Below the pieces are notes generated by a model that was not told where the DNA came from, made no database searches, and saw nothing but the letters and a program-made list of their open reading frames with translations. The translations under genes were made by a program, and so were the position numbers. Below, piece after piece: positions 10,722 to 17,825 of a stretch of DNA of 42,078 bases. Origin of the DNA: a virus; the IMG/VR virus record IMGVR_UViG_3300030042_000002; one strand, 5' to 3'. Each line of letters opens with the position of its first letter. The stretch's first letter is position 1.

Positions 10722-11891
10722 TTACGGGCTTGAGTAGTCTGAAAGATAAGCGCGCCAGTATATTTGGCTCGAAACTGTTACAATGGTTGTTTCAGTGATA
10801 ACAGTTGGTGCTCCTGGCCCAATTATGAATCCTTGGCTTGTGTTATTCACAAATGCGCCTTGGATTGCTGGACCGTTGATCGTAGGAGTTGCACCTGGTG
10901 TGTTGCTACCATAAATATTTGGAGCTGGGTATAGCGCTCCGCCTGTATATGGCCATCCACCACTATTAATATCTCCAGCTGCAAATACCTGTGCAAATTT
11001 CAATCCTGGGAATGAAAGAAACGTAGGGTTAGCCACTGAAAATGCAGTGATTGCAGGTGTATAGTTAAATGTAAAACTTGTTGGTGTCGGTGTTGACACA
11101 ACATAGAAATACTGTGGTGATGCAGGAATAGTCACATTAGGAAGTTCATTGAGCTGTTGTGCTCCATAAATTGATGGAATCCTAAATGCAATTTCTTGTC
11201 CTACTACAAAGTTGTGCGCTGCTGTTGTATTAACAGTAACGACACCACCAGTTTGAGTGATTGTCCAAGGAAATGCTACACCTGGCTCATAAAGAGTTGG
11301 GTATAGAATCTGCTTGAATGATGCCAATGTATTCAAACCACCAGTTGTAATAGCAGTTAAATTAGCTGCATTACCTACCCAACCGATTGTAAAGGTTGTA
11401 GTTGAACCTACTGTCAAAACTTCAAAAGGAATGCCAGCTAATGTCTGCATACCTGTAGAAGCTGTTTGATAAAGATTTTGGAAAGTAACCCAGTTTCCAG
11501 GTACAAGTCCGTGTACTGCTGTTGTAGTTACTGTCAAAGTTGTGGAATTTGTTTTAGCAATACCACCTGAACCACCTAGTAAAAAGGTAGGTCCATATTG
11601 AAGCAACTGACCAGCAGAAAAAGAACTAATCCCATTAGATTGGATTACGTCAAAAATTGTTGCAGTCCCAGAGCTATAACCTTCAACCATAGTTGCGTTA
11701 TTGCCTGTAGAAGCATCAAGAAGACGGTTATCCCACCAAGCTCTTGTCAAAAGACTAGCGCCGGATGTTTTAATATTAGTGTAATTCCAAATCTCAACAA
11801 AGTCAGGTTGAAACGGTAAATTAATAACCGCTGCTGTCTGACTAGCCCCTGCTGTGAAATTACCTTTTGCAATTCTTGAATATTCAGCCAT
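10722..11891 (-). CDS. Abundant-type structural protein directly after the capsid gene (possible decoration protein)
   Basis: 389-aa ORF with an AGGAGG SD. Two internal repeats: TAVHGLVPGNWVTF and TAAHNFVVGQEIAF. Confidence 0.7.
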   Translation of the reverse strand: MAEYSRIAKGNFTAGASQTAAVINLPFQPDFVEIWNYTNIKTSGASLLTRAWWDNRLLDASTGNNATMVEGYSSGTATIFDVIQSNGISSFSAGQLLQYGPTFLLGGSGGIAKTNSTTLTVTTTAVHGLVPGNWVTFQNLYQTASTGMQTLAGIPFEVLTVGSTTTFTIGWVGNAANLTAITTGGLNTLASFKQILYPTLYEPGVAFPWTITQTGGVVTVNTTAAHNFVVGQEIAFRIPSIYGAQQLNELPNVTIPASPQYFYVVSTPTPTSFTFNYTPAITAFSVANPTFLSFPGLKFAQVFAAGDINSGGWPYTGGALYPAPNIYGSNTPGATPTINGPAIQGAFVNNTSQGFIIGPGAPTVITETTIVTVSSQIYWRAYLSDYSSP

Positions 11892-11902
11892 GATAAAGCC
11901 TC

Positions 11903-12457
11903 CTAGTAGTTAATTCCACTCAGACGAGTAGAAAGTACGTTCCGGATCGCTGTATCTTGTGTCAAAGCTTGCGCTTGAGCGAACTTAACCGCTAAAGTAG
12001 CATTTTGCGCCAACATACCTGAATAGTATGGATCACGATAAATCAAGTTCATGGAATAACCATCTTGATTAATGTGTGTGATCGCTTGCTTTCCACAAAC
12101 CGTATTGTAATATACGTCTTGACCATTTGCCGAAGCACCGCGAGCTACTGGAGCCTCGGAGCTTGTCAGAATGCGCAAGTTATATACTGAACCCCATTCG
12201 CTCGGCAACGCGCTGGTATTATTTGGATAATTCCAGTTGTTGAATACCCCTTGACCAGTTAATGCGTCAAAATCTGACTGCAATTCAGTCGAAGAAAGCA
12301 TAAAATAGGAACTACGAATAGGCCCCGTGCCGAAGCGATCCATGCCTTCGATACCTGACATGAACTTGTAGGCGTTATTTGAGTCTAGAGTAGTAGCTAC
12401 AAGGCTAAAATCTGCTAGTCCCAAATTTGTTGGATTGTCCGTTCTATTACTTATTGA
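11903..12457 (-). CDS. Major capsid protein, exon 3
   Basis: The frame is open from 12457 (SISNRTDNPTNLGLADF...) to the stop at 11903. It follows the predicted 3' splice site after UUAAG. Confidence 0.65.
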   Translation of the reverse strand, partial: SISNRTDNPTNLGLADFSLVATTLDSNNAYKFMSGIEGMDRFGTGPIRSSYFMLSSTELQSDFDALTGQGVFNNWNYPNNTSALPSEWGSVYNLRILTSSEAPVARGASANGQDVYYNTVCGKQAITHINQDGYSMNLIYRDPYYSGMLAQNATLAVKFAQAQALTQDTAIRNVLSTRLSGINY

Positions 12458-12482
12458 CTTAAATAACCCTACAAACTACAAT
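12454..12482 (+). promoter_or_regulatory. Near-consensus sigma70-type promoter for the LAGLIDADG gene
   Basis: TTGACT (12454-12459), 17-nt spacer, TACAAT (12477-12482). The ATG is 7 nt after the -10 and has no SD. Confidence 0.5.
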
Positions 12483-13601
12483 ATGTAGCATGTACAATTC
12501 TACCGATCTTGCCTACACAGCTGGTTATATTGACGGAGATGGATGCTTTCACCTTAGAAAACAAGTTTTTAAAGGGAATAAGCGTCCTAAATATTCCGCC
12601 AAACTGATTATTTCTTCTGTTAATCCCGACGTTCTCCATTGGTTTAAGAAAACCTTTGGAGGTGTTGTTCGAGAAGTCAAAAGAAAATCTCTGCCCGACG
12701 GACATAAACGTCAGTACCATTTTATATTTGATAATAAGTCTTTCAAAGATTTTTCTACCGAGTTGACCAATATTTATTTGGTTGAGAAACGTGTAGAATC
12801 TGCTTGGTTTAGTAATTTTCTTTGCTGCAAATTTATTGAGGACAAAGAAAGTTGTATTGATGAACTTCAAAAAGAAAAGCATAAATTTGGTCTTGTACTG
12901 CCTTCTCAAAAGATAGAATTTGAAGATAGGAGAAACACTATCAAATTTACCGAATTGGATCTTGCCTACCTTGCTGGTTTTATTGATGCTGAATGCTGTC
13001 TCGGCATTCAACGTTACAAACCAAAAAAAAGACCTAATCACACTTATAAAATTCAACTTCAATGCAATAATACTAAATATCCATTCTTTAAATGGGCTCT
13101 TGAAAGATTTGGAGGGCAAATTCACTTTATAGAAAGACAAAAATCTATGGGACAAAGAGATCAACTTTGCTGGCGTCTCTCTGCTAAAGCTCTTCTGCCA
13201 ATTCTTAAAGGAATTCAACCTTATATCAAACATAAACTTCCAGTTTGTGAGGAACTTATTAAATTCTACAAAACAACTGTTCCTCTCAAAAATACGATAA
13301 GTAGAAATAGTCCGCATTTCGCAGAATATTACCGTCCTATCCTTGAAGAGAGAGAGAGCATTTTTCATAAAATCCAAATCCTAAACAAAAAAGGTATTTA
13401 ATTTAAGCGGGTCGGTCTTCTCAGCCGACCTCTCTATGTTTCCATAGAGTCTAGAGCACCGCATCACACTTTCGTGTGTCTTTCCGCTTGCTACGTTCAC
13501 GCTGCAAGAGCATATTGCTCAGCTTGCGCCTTGTTGTCTTCACCATTACGTGGTAAGAGTTTCAAGTCCATCAGGAAAGATTTTACAACGGCAATAAGTC
13601 T
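12458..13601 (-). mobile_element. Group I-like intron 2 of the capsid gene (1144 nt), carrying an antisense LAGLIDADG gene
   Basis: IGS GCCGUU (13592-13587) pairs with the exon 2 end AACGGU. ACUUAUU pairs with exon 3 AAUAAGU. GAAA-capped hairpins lie at 13432-13449 and 13465-13478. The core is shared with intron 1, and the intron ends UUAAG. Confidence 0.65.
12490..13401 (+). CDS. Double-motif LAGLIDADG homing endonuclease
   Basis: 303 aa with LAYTAGYIDGDGCF near the N-terminus and LAYLAGFIDAECCL mid-protein. Confidence 0.85.
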   Translation: MYNSTDLAYTAGYIDGDGCFHLRKQVFKGNKRPKYSAKLIISSVNPDVLHWFKKTFGGVVREVKRKSLPDGHKRQYHFIFDNKSFKDFSTELTNIYLVEKRVESAWFSNFLCCKFIEDKESCIDELQKEKHKFGLVLPSQKIEFEDRRNTIKFTELDLAYLAGFIDAECCLGIQRYKPKKRPNHTYKIQLQCNNTKYPFFKWALERFGGQIHFIERQKSMGQRDQLCWRLSAKALLPILKGIQPYIKHKLPVCEELIKFYKTTVPLKNTISRNSPHFAEYYRPILEERESIFHKIQILNKKGI

Positions 13602-13947
13602 ACCGTTGGACCCCGCACCTGCCATAAGCTGGCTTGCAGCAGAAACGATATAATCGCGCAAAATCAAATCTTCAGCTTGCCTCATGGCAACTGCTAAACG
13701 CTCTGACACCCACGCTAAAACACCTTCTTGGTCTTGTAATATCACTTGTTCGTTGATGATACAACCTGTGCCAAAGAAAGCCATCTGAGCATCGATAATA
13801 TCGCGCTGTGGGACCTGTGCAGGAGGGTCAATACCGCTGTTACCTAATTGTACGGTAGGCGGTTGTAGTGCGCGTGGGCGCATAAAGCGACATGTAGTTC
13901 CGCCATTTGCAGGCATACTAATTTTGTCACAAATCGTAATATAATTC
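13602..13947 (-). CDS. Major capsid protein, exon 2
   Basis: (M)NYITICDKISMPANGGTTCRFMRPRALQPP...AGAGSNG, in frame with exons 1 and 3 under the P1/P10 model. Confidence 0.65.
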
Positions 13948-14196
13948 CTTAATGTTAAGTTACTTACGTAACTGCCTAGTCATTTCTGCTAGACTCTCTA
14001 TGTTTCCATAGAGTTCAGAGCACCGCATCAACTTATTTAAGCTGTCTCTTCGCTTGCTACGTTCACGCTGCACAGTTTCCTTGCTTGCGCCTTGTTGCCT
14101 TCAACTTCACTTGGTCAGGGTTTCAAGTCCATCAGAAGAGATTTTACAACCACAAATTACTTGCACATAAAACATAGATGCAATATAGTTAGGCAT
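13948..14196 (-). ncRNA. Group I-like intron 1 of the capsid gene (249 nt, no ORF)
   Basis: IGS UAAUUUGUGGUU (14159-14148) is complementary to the ligated junction AACCAU|GAAUUA. A GAAA hairpin lies at 13996-14013 and a GUAA hairpin at 13958-13973. The intron ends UUAAG. Confidence 0.65.
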
Positions 14197-14282
14197 ATGG
14201 TTGGGGTTGGAACATATAACATAGCCGGCGCAAGTGATTGCAGGATAAGTGGTCCCAAATTCCCTGTAGTCGTAATCGACAT
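14197..14282 (-). CDS. Major capsid protein, exon 1
   Basis: The ATG at 14282 is preceded by GAGGT. Sequence MSITTTGNLGPLILQSLAPAMLYVPTPT plus 2 nt. An in-frame stop 41 nt downstream of the predicted splice site ends any unspliced reading. Confidence 0.65.
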
Positions 14283-14442
14283 TATTACCTCGAAATTGAG
14301 GTTCTTATGATGTGGTGAACCGCGGACGAACGTACTACGTCCATTCTCATTCACATCTTGATGAAAGGTGCGATACTTTCTAACGCGACAACTATTAACG
14401 TATAGCTAAACGAAATTTTAATTTAACACATAAAGGTTTTAT

Positions 14443-15105
14443 ATGGCACCAAAAAAAACACATGGAATGTCTTATACAGAAGAATACGCATGTTGGAGAT
14501 CTTTGAAAAATAGATGTCTTAATGCAAAAAACGCCCAGTATAAAGATTATGGAGGCCGAGGTATTACAATTTGTGAAAGATGGTTAAAATTTGAGAATTT
14601 CTTCGAGGATATGGGTAATCGTCCTAAAGATTGTGAAATTGATCGCATCAATAATGAACAGGGTTATTGCAAAGAAAATTGTCGATGGACAACTAAAAAG
14701 GTGAATGCTCGAAATAGGCGTTCTACTAAAAAACACAAAGTTGACACAAGTGAACTTGTTCAACAAGAACTTTTGGAAAAGATAGGCTGGACAAAGAATC
14801 AATTCCGATGGTTTTTTAAACGTTATGGCATTGAATGGATATTAGACAATTTTAAAAAGGGAACATTGCCAGAAAAATCAAACATTTCAGTAGATAAAGA
14901 TGAGGTTATAGGAAAACAGTTTGGTAAATGGTTTGTGTTAAACTTTATTTCCTACATTCGAGGTGAAGGTAATAGATATTTATGTCGTTGTGAATGCGGT
15001 TTTGAAAAGGAAGTTGTGGGCTATTATTTGCGATCAGGAAAAAGTACAGGATGCCGTCGATGTGCATATAAGAACCAGGTAAATAAACCCATGCCAAAGA
15101 AGTAA
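14443..15105 (+). CDS. Phage DNA-binding / homing-endonuclease-like protein (YGGRGI...CERW...DRINN...NCRW family) with a C-terminal Cys4 ribbon
   Basis: 220 aa. Motifs YACWRSLKNRC, YGGRGITICERW, IDRINNEQGYCKENCRWTT, CRCECG...CRRC. Confidence 0.6.
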   Translation: MAPKKTHGMSYTEEYACWRSLKNRCLNAKNAQYKDYGGRGITICERWLKFENFFEDMGNRPKDCEIDRINNEQGYCKENCRWTTKKVNARNRRSTKKHKVDTSELVQQELLEKIGWTKNQFRWFFKRYGIEWILDNFKKGTLPEKSNISVDKDEVIGKQFGKWFVLNFISYIRGEGNRYLCRCECGFEKEVVGYYLRSGKSTGCRRCAYKNQVNKPMPKK

Positions 15106-15424: not shown

Positions 15425-15430
15425 TATTAT

Positions 15431-15503
15431 CGCGCGATAGAGCAGTGGTTAGCTCATTTGGCTCATAATCAAAAGGTCGAAGGTTCGAATCCTTCTCGCG
15501 CTA
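15431..15503 (+). tRNA. tRNA with CAT anticodon (Met or Ile2), embedded in the Y-RNA array
   Basis: Cloverleaf with D-arm GAGC/GCTC, anticodon loop CTCATAA and T-arm GAAGG-TTCGAAT-CCTTC. The acceptor has a C1-U72 mismatch. No encoded CCA. Confidence 0.8.
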
Positions 15504-15508
15504 TTTGT

Positions 15509-15761: not shown

Positions 15762-15890
15762 GCCTATGTTGTAGATAAGAGTTACTTAGCTTGCAAAGCC
15801 CCGGATCATGGGTTCAAATCCCATCGCCCTTTCGAGGGTGTAGCTTAGTGTTTAAAGCGGGGACCGTTCTCTTATCGTTTGTTACTAGGC
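15762..15890 (+). ncRNA. Y-RNA-like module 5 (YrlA-like, with tRNA-like domain)
   Basis: Lower stem GCCTA/TAGGC and helix GATAAGAG/CTCTTATC. T-arm at 15808-15824, a UUCG-capped hairpin at 15825-15840 and a D-arm at 15843-15858. Closing helix CCCC/GGGG. Confidence 0.65.
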
Positions 15891-15904
15891 TTTTTGTTTC
15901 TTAA

Positions 15905-15970
15905 CCTTAGTGTAGATTGCAGTTACTTTGATTTGCATTCAAAAACATACCTGCGATCGTTTGTTCTAGG
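15905..15970 (+). ncRNA. Y-RNA-like module 6 (minimal stem module overlapping the rsr ribosome-binding site)
   Basis: Lower stem CCT[T]AG/CTAGG and helix GATTGCAG/CTGCGATC with a simple loop. The 3' strand CTAGG overlaps the SD AGGTGA of the Ro60 gene. Confidence 0.5.
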
Positions 15971-15977
15971 TGATTTT

Positions 15978-17312
15978 ATGAAAGTTAATGTTCAAAAGAG
16001 TGTTTTCACTCATCAAGGCGGAAAGGCTGTAGAAGTCAACGCCTACGAGCGCTTAAAGCGTACTATCATGGCTTGCATGCTTTTTGAAGATAATTTTTAC
16101 GAGGAAGGCGTTAAGGCGGCTGATAGAATTGCAGAATTATCAAAGCAATGTACTACAGATCAAATATGTACTTTAGCCTTAGAAGCCGCCACAAAATATC
16201 ATCTTAGGCATATTCCTTTACAAATGATTGTCGAAGCATTAGCGAAGAGAGATCATGGTAATGGAACACATATTATTTCAAATATAATTAATAAAATCAT
16301 CACTCGCCCTGACATGATGACCGACCTTTTAGCTTTGTATTGGAAATCAGGGAAAAAACCTCTTTCAAATCAACTTAAACGCGGCCTAGCAAAGGCATTT
16401 ACTAAATTCGATGAATACCAGTTATCTAAGTATAACCGTGATAATCCTATCAAATTGCGCGATGTCCTTTTTCTTTGCCACGCCAAACCTAAAGATGCAG
16501 ATCAAGCCGAATTATGGAAGCGCTTAATCAATAAAACGCTTAAGACTGCCGACACTTGGGAAACTCGTTTGTCTGCTGGAGAAGATAAGAAAGAATCGTT
16601 CCAAGAACTGCTTTTTAAAGGTAAAATGGGCAAACTTGCAATTCTTCGCAATATGCGGAATATGCAGCAAGCGGGTATCGCTAAAGAAGCCGTCGCGTTT
16701 GAACTTATGCGTAATATGAAAGAAATGTTACCTTTTCAATATCTTGCCGCTGCTCGAGAATGCCCTCAATGGGAAGATATCATAGATCCTGCAATGGTGG
16801 CTTCTGCTTCGTTTAAACCTAAGATTGAAGGCAAAACATTCATCCTTGTTGATGTATCCGGTAGTATGGTTTATCCTTTATCTGCTAAGTCTACTATGAC
16901 ACGTATGGATGCGGCCGCAGGATTAGCAATCTTACTACGCGAGTGCTGTAATGATTGCGAATTCTACACTTTTAGTGAAAGATTTGTGCCAATTCCTAAG
17001 CGTCACGGAATGGGATTACGTGATGTAATTAAATCATCTCAACCTAATCAAGGTACATATTTAGGCAATGCACTTAATCACATCATCAAATCAGGTGCTA
17101 AGTGGGATCGTCTTATCGTCATTACCGATGAACAGACAGCCGACAACATTCCTAATATGCCCATGGGTAAAAATTACATCCTTAACATTGGCAACTATCA
17201 AAATGGCATTGGAAATAAGAACCAATGGACGACTATTTCAGGGTTTAGTGAGGCATCAATAGATTTTATCAGGGAATATGAAGCAAGCACAGAAGCCAAA
17301 AAAGAAGATTAA
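15978..17312 (+). CDS. rsr: Ro60/Rsr orthologue (TROVE domain + vWA domain)
   Basis: MKVNVQKSVFTHQGGKAVEV start after the SD AGGTGA. TROVE-like motifs (KYNRDNPIKLRDVLFLCHAKP, ADTWETRLS, LAILRNMRNM) and a vWA MIDAS motif ILVDVSGSM. The track's TTG extension to 15879 overlaps the RNA modules and was not used. Confidence 0.85.
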   Translation: MKVNVQKSVFTHQGGKAVEVNAYERLKRTIMACMLFEDNFYEEGVKAADRIAELSKQCTTDQICTLALEAATKYHLRHIPLQMIVEALAKRDHGNGTHIISNIINKIITRPDMMTDLLALYWKSGKKPLSNQLKRGLAKAFTKFDEYQLSKYNRDNPIKLRDVLFLCHAKPKDADQAELWKRLINKTLKTADTWETRLSAGEDKKESFQELLFKGKMGKLAILRNMRNMQQAGIAKEAVAFELMRNMKEMLPFQYLAAARECPQWEDIIDPAMVASASFKPKIEGKTFILVDVSGSMVYPLSAKSTMTRMDAAAGLAILLRECCNDCEFYTFSERFVPIPKRHGMGLRDVIKSSQPNQGTYLGNALNHIIKSGAKWDRLIVITDEQTADNIPNMPMGKNYILNIGNYQNGIGNKNQWTTISGFSEASIDFIREYEASTEAKKED

Positions 17313-17749: not shown

Positions 17750-17822
17750 GCCCGTTTAACTCAGTGGCTAGAGTAGTGGTTTTGTAAACCAAAGGTCAGG
17801 GGTTCGAATCCCTTAACGGGCA
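17750..17822 (+). tRNA. tRNA-Thr (TGT)
   Basis: Acceptor GCCCGTT/AACGGGC, anticodon loop TTTGTAA, T-arm AGGGG-TTCGAAT-CCCTT. Confidence 0.85.
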
Positions 17823-17825
17823 TAT

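What the first reader, a model, noticed from the sequence alone, without database searches (positions are those of the whole stretch)
11903..14282. Major capsid gene split into three exons by two paralogous group I-like introns
**Capsid fragments.** Capsid-like sequence occurs in three minus-strand pieces: MSITTTGNLGPL..., ...MPANGGTTCRFMRPRAL... and ...LGLADFSLVATTLDSNNAYKF.... They are separated by 249 nt and 1144 nt containing in-frame stops.

**Shared core of the two intervening sequences.**
- They share three near-identical blocks: 67 nt with 9 mismatches, 21/21, and 35 nt with 2 mismatches.
- The blocks are separated by divergent hairpins.
- GNRA-capped stems read as GNRA only on the minus strand: CTCTATG-GAAA-CATAGAG in both, CACAC-GAAA-GTGTG in intron 2, and AGTTAC-GTAA-GTAACT in intron 1.

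**Guide sequences.** Just 5' of the shared core, each carries a different guide that matches its own exons.
- Intron 1: UAAUUUGUGGUU pairs with AACCAU|GAAUUA over 12 contiguous bp, with wobbles flanking the junction.
- Intron 2: GCCGUU pairs with AACGGU (U-G at the cleavage site), and ACUUAUU pairs with AAUAAGU near the start of exon 3.

**Splice consequences.**
- Both introns follow a CCAACNNU exon context and both end UUAAG.
- Splicing at these sites keeps the frame and gives a 328-aa product.
Basis: partly seen in the sequence, partly recalled or inferred. Interest (0 to 1): 0.8.

Follow-up and report, generated by a model that had tools for sequence, protein, structure and literature searches.

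The report
Two self-splicing introns split capsid gene
The only major capsid gene of this roughly 42 kb uncultured phage is interrupted by two related group I-type self-splicing introns from a large, uncatalogued intron family, and one intron carries a homing endonuclease gene on the opposite strand that is unusually free of stop codons on both strands.

Summary

**Gene structure.** The minus-strand capsid gene has three exons:
- exon 1: 14282..14197
- exon 2: 13947..13602
- exon 3: 12439..11903

An intron-less relative (L139) is exactly colinear across both junctions.

**Correction.** It is 13601..12440 (1162 nt), and the product is 322 aa, not 328.

**Evidence for group I architecture.** A covariance model built here finds 237 copies in 140 viral loci.
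- 94% of pair cells are paired, against 37-50% in slid controls.
- The P3/P7 pseudoknot is supported independently of the model.
- A guide sequence pairs with the 5' exon and ends in a U.G wobble, over 37 different target hexamers.
- P9.0 covaries.
- Both introns end in G.

**Against catalogued membership.** Rfam's group I model gives no hit at all, although it finds the phage T4 td and nrdB introns at 36-40 bits.

**Endonuclease gene.** Intron 2 holds an intact LAGLIDADG gene on the opposite strand.

**Unexpected finding.** This gene and 10 diverged homologues avoid TTA, CTA and TCA, so the mRNA-sense strand is also stop-free for about 300 codons.

Splicing itself is inferred and has not been shown.

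The parts
14197..14282 (-). Capsid exon 1. ATG at 14282..14280, GAGG ribosome-binding site 7 nt upstream. Ends ...CCAACCAU.
   Evidence: BLASTN to the intron-less gene L139 covers window 14291..14197 = L139 2001..2095.
13948..14196 (-). Intron 1, 249 nt, no ORF. Elements: P1, a hairpin in L1 (14183..14161), P3-P9, P9.1, P9.2 (13973..13958). Ends ...CAUUAAG, with the terminal G at 13948.
   Evidence: It is an exact insertion relative to L139 (2095|2096). The protein junction PTPTM|NYIT is colinear with 12 homologues. The family model scores 191 bits.
14148..14159 (-). Internal guide of intron 1, UAAUUUGUGGUU. GUGGUU pairs with the exon 1 end AACCAU (P1, terminal U.G). UAAUUU pairs with the exon 2 start GAAUUA (P10).
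   Evidence: Read from the sequence. Relatives at the same site show a compensating change, AACGAU/GUCGUU in L004 and L016.
13971..14150 (-). Catalytic core of intron 1.
- P3: 14141..14135 with 14051..14045
- P4/P5/P5a
- P6/P6a: 14089..14066
- P7: 14060..14055 with 14022..14018
- P8: 14044..14029
- P9: 14013..13996
- P9.1: 13993..13975
13602..13947 (-). Capsid exon 2. Ends ...CCAACGGU.
12440..13601 (-). Intron 2, 1162 nt (corrected). It has the same core as intron 1, with a 0.9 kb insert in the P9.2 loop.
   Evidence: L139 joins 13602 to 12439 (2441|2442). Homologues read GSNG|DNPTN. The family model scores 201 bits.
13587..13598 (-). Internal guide of intron 2, CUUAUUGCCGUU. GCCGUU pairs with the exon 2 end AACGGU (P1, U.G). 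UUAUU pairs weakly with the exon 3 start GACAA (4 of 5, one C.A mismatch).
   Evidence: Relatives at this site show a cleaner P10: L006 GAAUAUU/GAUAUUC, and L010/L015 UUGUU/GACAA.
13407..13589 (-). Catalytic core of intron 2.
- P3: 13580..13574 with 13485..13479
- P6/P6a: 13528..13500
- P7: 13494..13489 with 13458..13454
- P8: 13478..13465
- P9: 13449..13432
- P9.1: 13430..13410
13401..13407 (-). 5' strand of the P9.2 stem (CUUAAAU). Its partner is AUUUAAG at 12464..12458. The endonuclease gene sits in the loop.
   Evidence: In L015/L019 the same stem closes a short loop without the ORF, and L010 has the ORF.
12490..13401 (+). Intact double-motif LAGLIDADG homing endonuclease gene (303 aa), antisense to the intron and the capsid gene.
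   Evidence: - Pfam PF00961 scores 34.5 bits against a cut-off of 23.1.
- PHROG 5046, E = 9e-34.
- Weak similarity to I-CreI and I-MsoI.
- Full-length homologues are antisense and just 3' of the core in the other loci.
12469..13377 (-). Stop-free frame on the mRNA-sense strand. It is codon-aligned with the reverse complement of the endonuclease gene (302 codons, ATG at 13368). It ends 4 nt before the P9.2 3' strand.
   Evidence: No Pfam match.
12440..12457 (-). 3' tail of intron 2, UCAAUAAGUAAUAGAACG. UAG pairs with J7/9 CUA (P9.0). The terminal G is at 12440.
11903..12439 (-). Capsid exon 3. Starts GACAAUCC and ends with the stop codon TAG at 11905..11903.
   Evidence: BLASTN covers window 12439..11802 = L139 2442..3069.

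Best explanation
The phage's single major capsid gene (N4-gp56 family, minus strand) is transcribed as a precursor that contains two paralogous group I-type ribozyme introns.

**How each intron would splice.**
- A 6-nt guide just upstream of the core pairs with the last six exon bases and ends in a U.G wobble (P1).
- The core folds into P3-P9 with a P3/P7 pseudoknot.
- A guanosine cofactor would attack after the U.
- The 3' splice site is set by P9.0, the terminal G and P10.
- The exons are then ligated to encode a 322-aa capsid protein.

**Boundaries.** Intron 1 is 14196..13948. Intron 2 is 13601..12440.

**Mobility.**
- Intron 2 carries an opposite-strand LAGLIDADG homing endonuclease in the loop of P9.2. 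This enzyme would cut intron-less capsid alleles in co-infecting relatives and drive homing.
- Intron 1 has no ORF. It sits at a similar CCAACNNU site with a retargeted guide, so it probably arose by ectopic movement of a family member.

**Shown versus inferred.**
- Shown: the insertion boundaries, the conserved and covarying RNA architecture, and the intact endonuclease gene.
- Inferred: the splicing chemistry, the homing, and the origin of intron 1.
For: **Exact colinearity**
- Twelve uninterrupted homologues (321-325 aa, 86-93% identical) align across PTPTM|NYIT and GSNG|DNPTN.
- BLASTN to the intron-less gene L139 joins 14197|13947 and 13602|12439 with no lost or extra base.

**RNA structure**
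- RNAalifold on 19 copies predicts P3, P4, P5, P5a, P6, P6a, P8, P9 and P9.1. Of 42 pairs, 27 show compensatory changes.
- On 150 copies, 94.1% of pair cells are paired against 37-50% when the partners are slid. The covariation score is 0.433 against at most 0.077.
- P7 was not part of the search model. It is still 92.9% paired, with GC<->CG and CG<->UA exchanges.

**Guide sequence**
- Of 145 distinct copies, 73 have five Watson-Crick pairs plus a terminal U.G with a hexamer 3-60 nt upstream. Shuffled guides give 5.9.
- These cover 37 different target hexamers.

**P9.0**
- J7/9 CUG goes with tail CAG in 70 copies.
- J7/9 CUA goes with tail UAG in 9 of 9 copies, and window intron 2 is one of these.

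**Presence/absence among relatives**
- L016 has both introns.
- L004 has an intron at the intron 1 site; its held stretch (2.6 kb) ends before the intron 2 site.
- L139 has none.

**Endonuclease**
- It matches LAGLIDADG above the Pfam cut-off.
- It is intact and antisense in the other diverged copies.
Against: - There is no RNA or biochemical evidence of splicing.
- Rfam RF00028 gives no hit at E <= 10 on the region, on intron 1 alone (266 nt), or on six related loci. The same search finds T4 td at 40.3 bits and nrdB at 35.7 bits.
- Some junction lengths are atypical under my assignment. J3/4 is about 7 nt, and J8/7 is only about 3 nt if the inner GC/GC pairs of P7 are real.
- The guanosine-binding pair cannot be assigned with certainty.
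- P10 of intron 2 is weak (4 of 5).
- Single-sequence folding of intron 1 is no better than shuffles (z = -0.82).
- Two scans of metagenome contigs for the spliced junctions found nothing. This is uninformative either way.
Confidence: 0.85

Rival explanations
1. Intron 2 is spliced at the reader's site (13602|12457, after UUAAG). This would give a 328-aa capsid with a six-residue SISNRT insertion, either always or as an alternative 3' splice site.
For: The site keeps the reading frame. It follows a G. ACUUAUU just 5' of the guide can pair with AAUAAGU at exon positions +3 to +9. Intron 1 also ends UUAAG.
Against: - SISNRT is absent from all 12 aligned homologues.
- The intron-less DNA has no counterpart for these 18 nt.
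- The 18 nt match the conserved family intron tail.
- They contain the covarying P9.0 strand.
- UUAAG is the 3' strand of the P9.2 stem that encloses the endonuclease gene.
Confidence: 0.05
2. The intervening sequences are self-splicing RNAs of a distinct class. They resemble group I introns in guide use and terminal G, but they do not use the canonical guanosine-cofactor chemistry or active site.
For: - RF00028 gives no score at all, while the T4 introns score 36-40 bits.
- The model built here does not hit the T4 introns either.
- J3/4, J6/7 and J8/7 have unusual lengths.
- P7 has an internal loop.
- A highly conserved 3' tail AAGUAACAGA has no obvious canonical counterpart.
Against: - Every topological hallmark of group I introns is present and covaries: P1 with U.G, P10, P9.0, terminal G, the P4-P6 and P3-P8 domains, the P3/P7 pseudoknot, an A-rich J4/5, and a GAAA L9.
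- RF00028 is known to miss the ID and IE subgroups and some phage variants (PMC11878797).
Confidence: 0.08
3. The capsid gene is a pseudogene disrupted by non-splicing insertions, or the arrangement is an assembly artefact. Functional capsid protein would come from elsewhere.
For: Splicing has not been demonstrated. Gene callers would see only fragments.
Against: - The exons stay in frame and are about 90% identical in protein to intact homologues.
- No second family-model hit and no second capsid ORF was seen in the 42 kb window.
- The same two-intron arrangement occurs on an independent contig, L016.
- The RNA structure is under clear selection.
- The insertion boundaries are exact to the base.
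Confidence: 0.02

Closest known systems
Phage T4 td, nrdB and nrdD group I (IA2) introns with homing endonucleases I-TevI to I-TevIII
   Same: These are self-splicing introns in an essential phage gene. The endonuclease ORF is looped out of a peripheral stem. Presence varies among related phages. The guide sequence, U.G wobble and terminal G are shared features.
   Different: - The T4 ORFs are on the same strand as the intron and belong to the GIY-YIG or HNH families.
- T4 introns score 36-40 bits with RF00028, whereas this family scores nothing.
- The family model built here does not hit T4.
- This family has no P2 and no P7.1/P7.2.
Mycobacteriophage LittleE capsid gene intron (Cluster J; PMC3706429)
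   Same: It is an intron in a major capsid gene with a homing endonuclease transcribed in the opposite direction. The exon ends in U and the intron ends in G. In that phage, splicing was shown by RT-PCR and protein sequencing.
   Different: LittleE has a single intron with an HNH enzyme, and the authors left its class unresolved. Here there are two paralogous introns, a LAGLIDADG enzyme, a large family with covariation support, and a stop-free mRNA-sense frame across the endonuclease gene.
Group I introns of Bastillevirinae phages (PMC11878797); Staphylococcus phage Twort as a multi-intron example (from my own knowledge)
   Same: Several group I introns occur per genome or gene. Some carry nucleases and some do not. 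That paper argues that phage introns exceed the current subgroup scheme and that Rfam and GISSD models can miss them.
   Different: The Bastillevirinae introns were found because they match existing models, mostly IA2 and IA3. The family here is invisible to RF00028 and concentrates in capsid and other late genes of uncultured phages, with up to about 10 hits per locus.
Ambigrammatic narnaviruses (bioRxiv 10.1101/761890; PMC8316113)
   Same: A codon-aligned reverse-strand ORF spans a whole gene and is kept open by avoiding CUA, UUA and UCA. In those viruses its translation matters, although its protein function is doubted (PMC8155312).
   Different: Those are RNA viruses of eukaryotes. Here the pattern is in a homing endonuclease gene inside an intron of a DNA phage. 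The stop-free strand is the capsid pre-mRNA. The resemblance is one of pattern only, and no function was tested.

Membership tests
Group I intron | The 5' splice site follows a U that forms a U.G wobble at the end of a P1 helix between the 5' exon and an internal guide sequence. | tested here: met
   - Intron 1: AACCAU/GUGGUU.
- Intron 2: AACGGU/GCCGUU.
- Family: 73 of 145 copies against 5.9 expected, over 37 target hexamers.
Group I intron | The last intron nucleotide is G, positioned by P9.0. | tested here: met
   Both introns end in G at boundaries fixed by the intron-less allele. P9.0 covaries for intron 2 and the main family type: CUG/CAG in 70 copies and CUA/UAG in 9 of 9. No P9.0 partner was identified for intron 1, whose 3' tail lacks the CAG motif.
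Group I intron | P10 pairing between the guide and the start of the 3' exon. | tested here: inconclusive
   Intron 1 has 6 of 6 pairs contiguous with P1. Intron 2 has only 4 of 5, with a C.A mismatch. Relatives at the same site have 6-7 pairs.
Group I intron | A conserved core of P3-P9 with a P3/P7 pseudoknot and separate P4-P6 and P3-P8 domains. | tested here: met
   RNAalifold predicts the helices. Pair counts give 94.1% paired against 37-50% for slid partners, and 47 of 49 pairs show changes on both sides. P7 is supported although it was absent from the search model.
Group I intron | A guanosine-binding G-C pair in P7 next to a bulged nucleotide. | tested here: inconclusive
   A G-C pair that never changes to another standard pair (89 G-C cells, 7 unpaired) sits at the J6/7-proximal end of P7, beside a variable bulged base. 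Its register differs from the textbook arrangement, and binding cannot be tested in silico.
Group I intron | A match to the curated covariance model Rfam RF00028. | tested here: not met
   No hit at gathering score or at E <= 10. The positive controls T4 td and nrdB score 40.3 and 35.7 bits. The seed of this model lacks whole subgroups (PMC11878797).
Group I intron | Guanosine-dependent two-step self-splicing. | not testable with these tools
   This needs in vitro transcription and splicing, or RNA from infected cells.
LAGLIDADG homing endonuclease | One or two LAGLIDADG motifs in an alpha-beta-beta-alpha-beta-beta-alpha fold, and a match to the family profile. | tested here: met
   Two motifs are present, LAYTAGYIDGDG and LAYLAGFIDAEC. 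PF00961 scores 34.5 bits against a cut-off of 23.1. There is weak similarity to I-CreI and I-MsoI. Cleavage activity was not tested.
N4-gp56 family major capsid protein | Full-length similarity to family members and profiles. | tested here: met
   Homologues are 85-92% identical over 99% of the length, and some are named N4-gp56 family major capsid protein. PHROG 1357 'major head protein' gives E = 1e-16. Pfam PF25209 scores only 17.5 bits against a cut-off of 27.

The most novel reading that the evidence does not exclude
These introns belong to a structurally distinct, uncatalogued lineage of group I-type ribozymes that standard models cannot see. The lineage has proliferated in late genes of uncultured phages by retargeting its guide sequence.

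Its opposite-strand homing endonuclease gene is under selection to stay stop-free on the capsid-mRNA strand. Ribosomes could then translate across the 0.9 kb insert in the precursor, for example to escape Rho-dependent termination or RNA decay before exon 3 is made.

This would be a DNA-phage counterpart of the ambigrammatic narnavirus genomes.
Probability: 0.35. Interest if true: 0.85.

Novelty: new variant of a known kind. Interest (0 to 1): 0.62.

Why it matters
**Annotation.** Gene callers break this capsid gene into fragments, and RF00028-based screens report no intron. Capsid genes of this phage clade are therefore systematically mis-annotated. A family model such as the one built here would repair hundreds of genes.

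**Intron biology.**
- The family offers a natural experiment in guide retargeting: dozens of insertion sites, with apparent micro-exons of about 12 nt.
- It also extends the known structural range of group I-type ribozymes.

**The stop-free endonuclease gene.** If the double-strand stop-free pattern reflects translation of the antisense insert, it would reveal how a phage tolerates a long opposite-strand selfish gene inside its most highly expressed gene.

Tried and rejected
- **Rfam, gathering score, whole window:** only five tRNAs.
- **Rfam at E <= 10:** run on the region, on six related loci, and on intron 1 alone. No group I hit.
- **GenBank phages:** megablast and blastn with the intron core, and tblastn with the spliced capsid protein, found no match. 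The clade has no cultured relative in that collection.
- **Core 21-mer in GTDB genomes:** one short MAG contig only, so there is no host clue.
- **Spliced-junction 22-23-mers in metagenome contigs:** none.
- **Single-sequence MFE folding of intron 1 on either strand:** z = -0.82 and -1.37, uninformative.
- **Group II intron, intein, translational bypass:** all rejected. The elements are 249 and 1162 nt long and have in-frame stops. They lack the GUGYG start and AY end of group II introns, and they have a conserved RNA structure.
- **Sense-strand ORF as a known protein:** no Pfam match.
- **Literature searches:** these found capsid-gene introns and opposite-strand endonucleases in other phages, but nothing on this family or on stop-free antisense endonuclease genes.
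- **First exon coordinates:** my first attempt was off by one base and gave a frameshift. This was corrected.
Full report
**What is in the sequence.**
- The minus strand of 11903..14282 carries three capsid-like coding pieces separated by two non-coding stretches.
- That product matches PHROG 1357 'major head protein' (E = 1e-16).
- It also has over a thousand database homologues. The best 120 are uninterrupted proteins of 311-325 aa at 84-92% identity, and several are named N4-gp56 family major capsid protein.
- The rest of the window looks like a complete phage genome of about 42 kb. It has a portal, a large terminase, a helicase, a RecT-like protein and five tRNAs.

**Where the boundaries are.**
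- In an alignment with 12 intron-less homologues, junction 1 is exactly colinear (VPTPTM|NYIT).
- I fetched the DNA of the closest intron-less gene (L139). BLASTN gives three colinear pieces:
  - window 14291..14197 = L139 2001..2095
  - window 13947..13636 = L139 2096..2407
  - window 12439..11802 = L139 2442..3069
- The 34 unaligned bases on each side correspond one to one.
- Intron 2 is 13601..12440 (1162 nt). Exon 3 starts at 12439 and the product is 322 aa.

**The introns belong to a large family.**
- The invariant 21-mer of the core occurs in 20 IMG/VR contigs.
- A 14-mer from the P7/J7-9 region brought in 118 more loci.
- I aligned 19 cores (A3). RNAalifold alone predicted P3, P4, P5, P5a, P6, P6a, P8, P9 and P9.1, with compensatory changes in 27 of 42 pairs.
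- A covariance model built from this alignment (R1) finds 156 + 81 = 237 hits at E <= 0.01 in 140 loci (1.25 Mb). Some loci have up to about 10 hits (L122, L137, L052, L053, L062).
- The model finds none in the intron-less L139 and none in phage T4.
- The window holds exactly two copies, even with filters off.
- Many copies lie a few dozen bases apart in capsid genes. In L014 two introns appear to be separated by an exon of about 12 nt. I inferred this by comparison with L020 and did not verify it further.

**Structure tests.**
- On the 150-copy alignment, 94.1% of pair cells form standard pairs. The figure is 66.8% after shuffling and 37-50% when the partners are slid.
- The covariation score is 0.433, against at most 0.077 for slid partners. 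Forty-seven of 49 pairs show a change on both sides.
- That alignment was fitted to the nested helices, which inflates their numbers.
- P7 was not in the model, because it crosses P3. It is still 92.9% paired, with GC<->CG (61/19), CG<->UA (61/24) and AU<->UA/GC exchanges.
- The core therefore has the P3/P7 pseudoknot and the two-domain layout of group I introns.
- An invariant G-C pair beside a variable bulged base lies at the J6/7 end of P7. This is my candidate for the guanosine site. The assignment is an inference.

**Splice-site recognition.**
- Six bases that end three nucleotides upstream of the conserved AAAUC act as a guide.
- In 73 of 145 distinct copies the guide forms five Watson-Crick pairs plus a terminal U.G with a hexamer 3-60 nt upstream, usually about 9 nt. 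Shuffled guides give 5.9. The 73 cover 37 different hexamers.
- The window's pairs are AACCAU/GUGGUU and AACGGU/GCCGUU.
- Relatives at the intron 1 site carry the compensated AACGAU/GUCGUU.
- At the 3' end most family members finish ...GGUCAnAAAAGUAACAGAnnG.
- The CAG of this tail pairs with CUG immediately after P7, which is P9.0. All nine copies with CUA have UAG, and window intron 2 is one of them.
- This independently places the end of intron 2 at ...AAUAGAACG (12440).
- L015 and L019 are the same intron as L010 but without the ORF. In them that stem closes a short loop.
- Intron 1 and its relatives L004 and L016 form a sub-type with an extra hairpin in the P1 loop, a GUAA-capped P9.2 and a different tail (...UUAACAnnAAG).

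**Is it a group I intron?**
- Every architectural hallmark I could test is present.
- Yet Rfam RF00028 gives nothing: not at gathering score, not at E <= 10 on 2.6 kb, not on 55 kb of related loci, and not on the 266 nt around intron 1 alone.
- As a control, the same search finds T4 td at 40.3 bits and nrdB at 35.7 bits.
- A recent survey notes that RF00028 has no ID or IE sequences in its seed and that existing models may miss phage variants (PMC11878797).
- I therefore file this as working like a group I intron. It is probably a member of the class but lies outside the catalogued sequence families.
- Junction lengths are also somewhat unusual: a long J3/4 and J6/7, and an internal loop in P7.

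**The endonuclease.**
- Intron 2 carries a 303-aa ORF on the plus strand (12490..13401) with two LAGLIDADG motifs. It passes the Pfam cut-off and is weakly similar to I-CreI and I-MsoI.
- TBLASTN finds full-length homologues at 35-52% identity in ten other loci. At least nine of them (all but L111, where no core lies close by) sit immediately 3' of an intron core, on the opposite strand.
- The antisense arrangement is therefore old and the gene is maintained.
- An opposite-strand endonuclease in a capsid-gene intron has a precedent in mycobacteriophage LittleE (PMC3706429).

**An unexpected property.**
- The mRNA-sense strand across the endonuclease gene is also stop-free: 297 codons in the window and 284-303 in all ten homologues, at 27-35% G+C.
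- Sixteen ordinary genes of the window have codon-aligned antisense runs of only 37-100 codons.
- The cause is specific avoidance of the three codons whose reverse complements are stops:

| Codon measure | Endonuclease genes | Window genes |
|---|---|---|
| TCA as a fraction of TCN | 0.03 | 0.44 |
| CTA as a fraction of CTN | 0.01 | 0.23 |
| TTA/(TTA+TTG) | 0.20 | 0.69 |

- Other A-ending codons are used normally.
- Given the window's codon usage, the chance of this pattern is 1e-8 to 3e-12 per gene.
- The sense-strand frame ends 4 nt before the P9.2 3' strand. It has no Pfam match.
- The pattern is the one described for ambigrammatic narnaviruses. I found no report of it for homing endonucleases.
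- Whether it reflects translation across the insert in the capsid precursor, a second protein, or something else is open.

**Verdict.**
- The finding is real.
- The kind itself (self-splicing introns with homing endonucleases in phage structural genes) is known.
- What is new is the lineage, which standard models cannot see and which is highly proliferated, and the double-strand stop-free endonuclease gene.
- Splicing, homing and any role of the sense-strand frame remain inferences.

Noticed in passing
window 12469..13401, both strands; also L001, L002, L003, L009, L010, L011, L016, L046, L067, L111: The opposite-strand LAGLIDADG gene is stop-free on both strands. It almost entirely avoids TTA, CTA and TCA, so the codon-aligned frame on the capsid-mRNA strand is open for about 300 codons in all 11 diverged copies. 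The chance per gene is 1e-8 to 3e-12. This pattern is known from ambigrammatic narnaviruses.
   Followed up: partly
window 12454..12482 (+): A sigma-70-like site, TTGACT-17-TACAAT (10 of 12), ends 7 nt before the endonuclease ATG at 12490, and no Shine-Dalgarno sequence lies between them. The -35 hexamer is the reverse complement of the conserved intron tail AAGUCAA. A 'ttgacttaa' string recurs upstream of seven homologues. The endonuclease mRNA may be leaderless. The region as a whole has no excess of promoter-like sites (10 found, 8.3 expected).
   Followed up: partly
window 14443..15105 (+): A free-standing HNH-type endonuclease gene (PHROG 374, E = 2e-47) sits 160 nt upstream of the capsid start codon on the opposite strand. 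It is a second selfish nuclease next to the same gene.
   Followed up: no
window 15879..17312 (+), with tRNAs at 15430..15504 and 17750..18059: A Ro60/TROVE-like RNA-binding protein gene (PHROG 850, E = 7e-39) is flanked by five tRNA genes. The intron-less relative L139 also has a TROVE + vWA gene next to its capsid gene. I did not look for a partner Y-RNA-like RNA.
   Followed up: no
L014 3389..4081; L122 209..2459; L137 1202..3827; L052, L053, L062: Some related contigs carry 6-10 model hits within 2-3 kb of one gene. The apparent exons are only about 12-40 nt long, for example AAUAUGAUCCAU in L014. This is an extreme intron density for a phage gene.
   Followed up: partly
L015 1345..1525 and L019 13821..14001 versus L010 9710..9890: The intron cores are identical, but L015 and L019 lack the endonuclease ORF and the P9.2 stem closes a short loop. 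This looks like clean loss or gain of the endonuclease gene within one intron.
   Followed up: partly
window 10722..11891 (-): The gene just downstream of the capsid gene matches the ubiquitin-activating enzyme E1 FCCH domain (PF16190) at 30.5 bits, just above the cut-off of 29.5. The same faint hit appears in the L139 orthologue. It may be a small beta-barrel in a head decoration or structural protein.
   Followed up: no
window 14157..14159 and 13497..13499 (-): Ribosomes reading from exon 1 would stop at a UAA that lies inside the P10 guide of intron 1. Ribosomes reading from exon 2 would run about 105 nt into the intron 2 core and stop at the UGA in J6/7. Translation could therefore interfere with, or help, folding differently in the two introns.
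   Followed up: no
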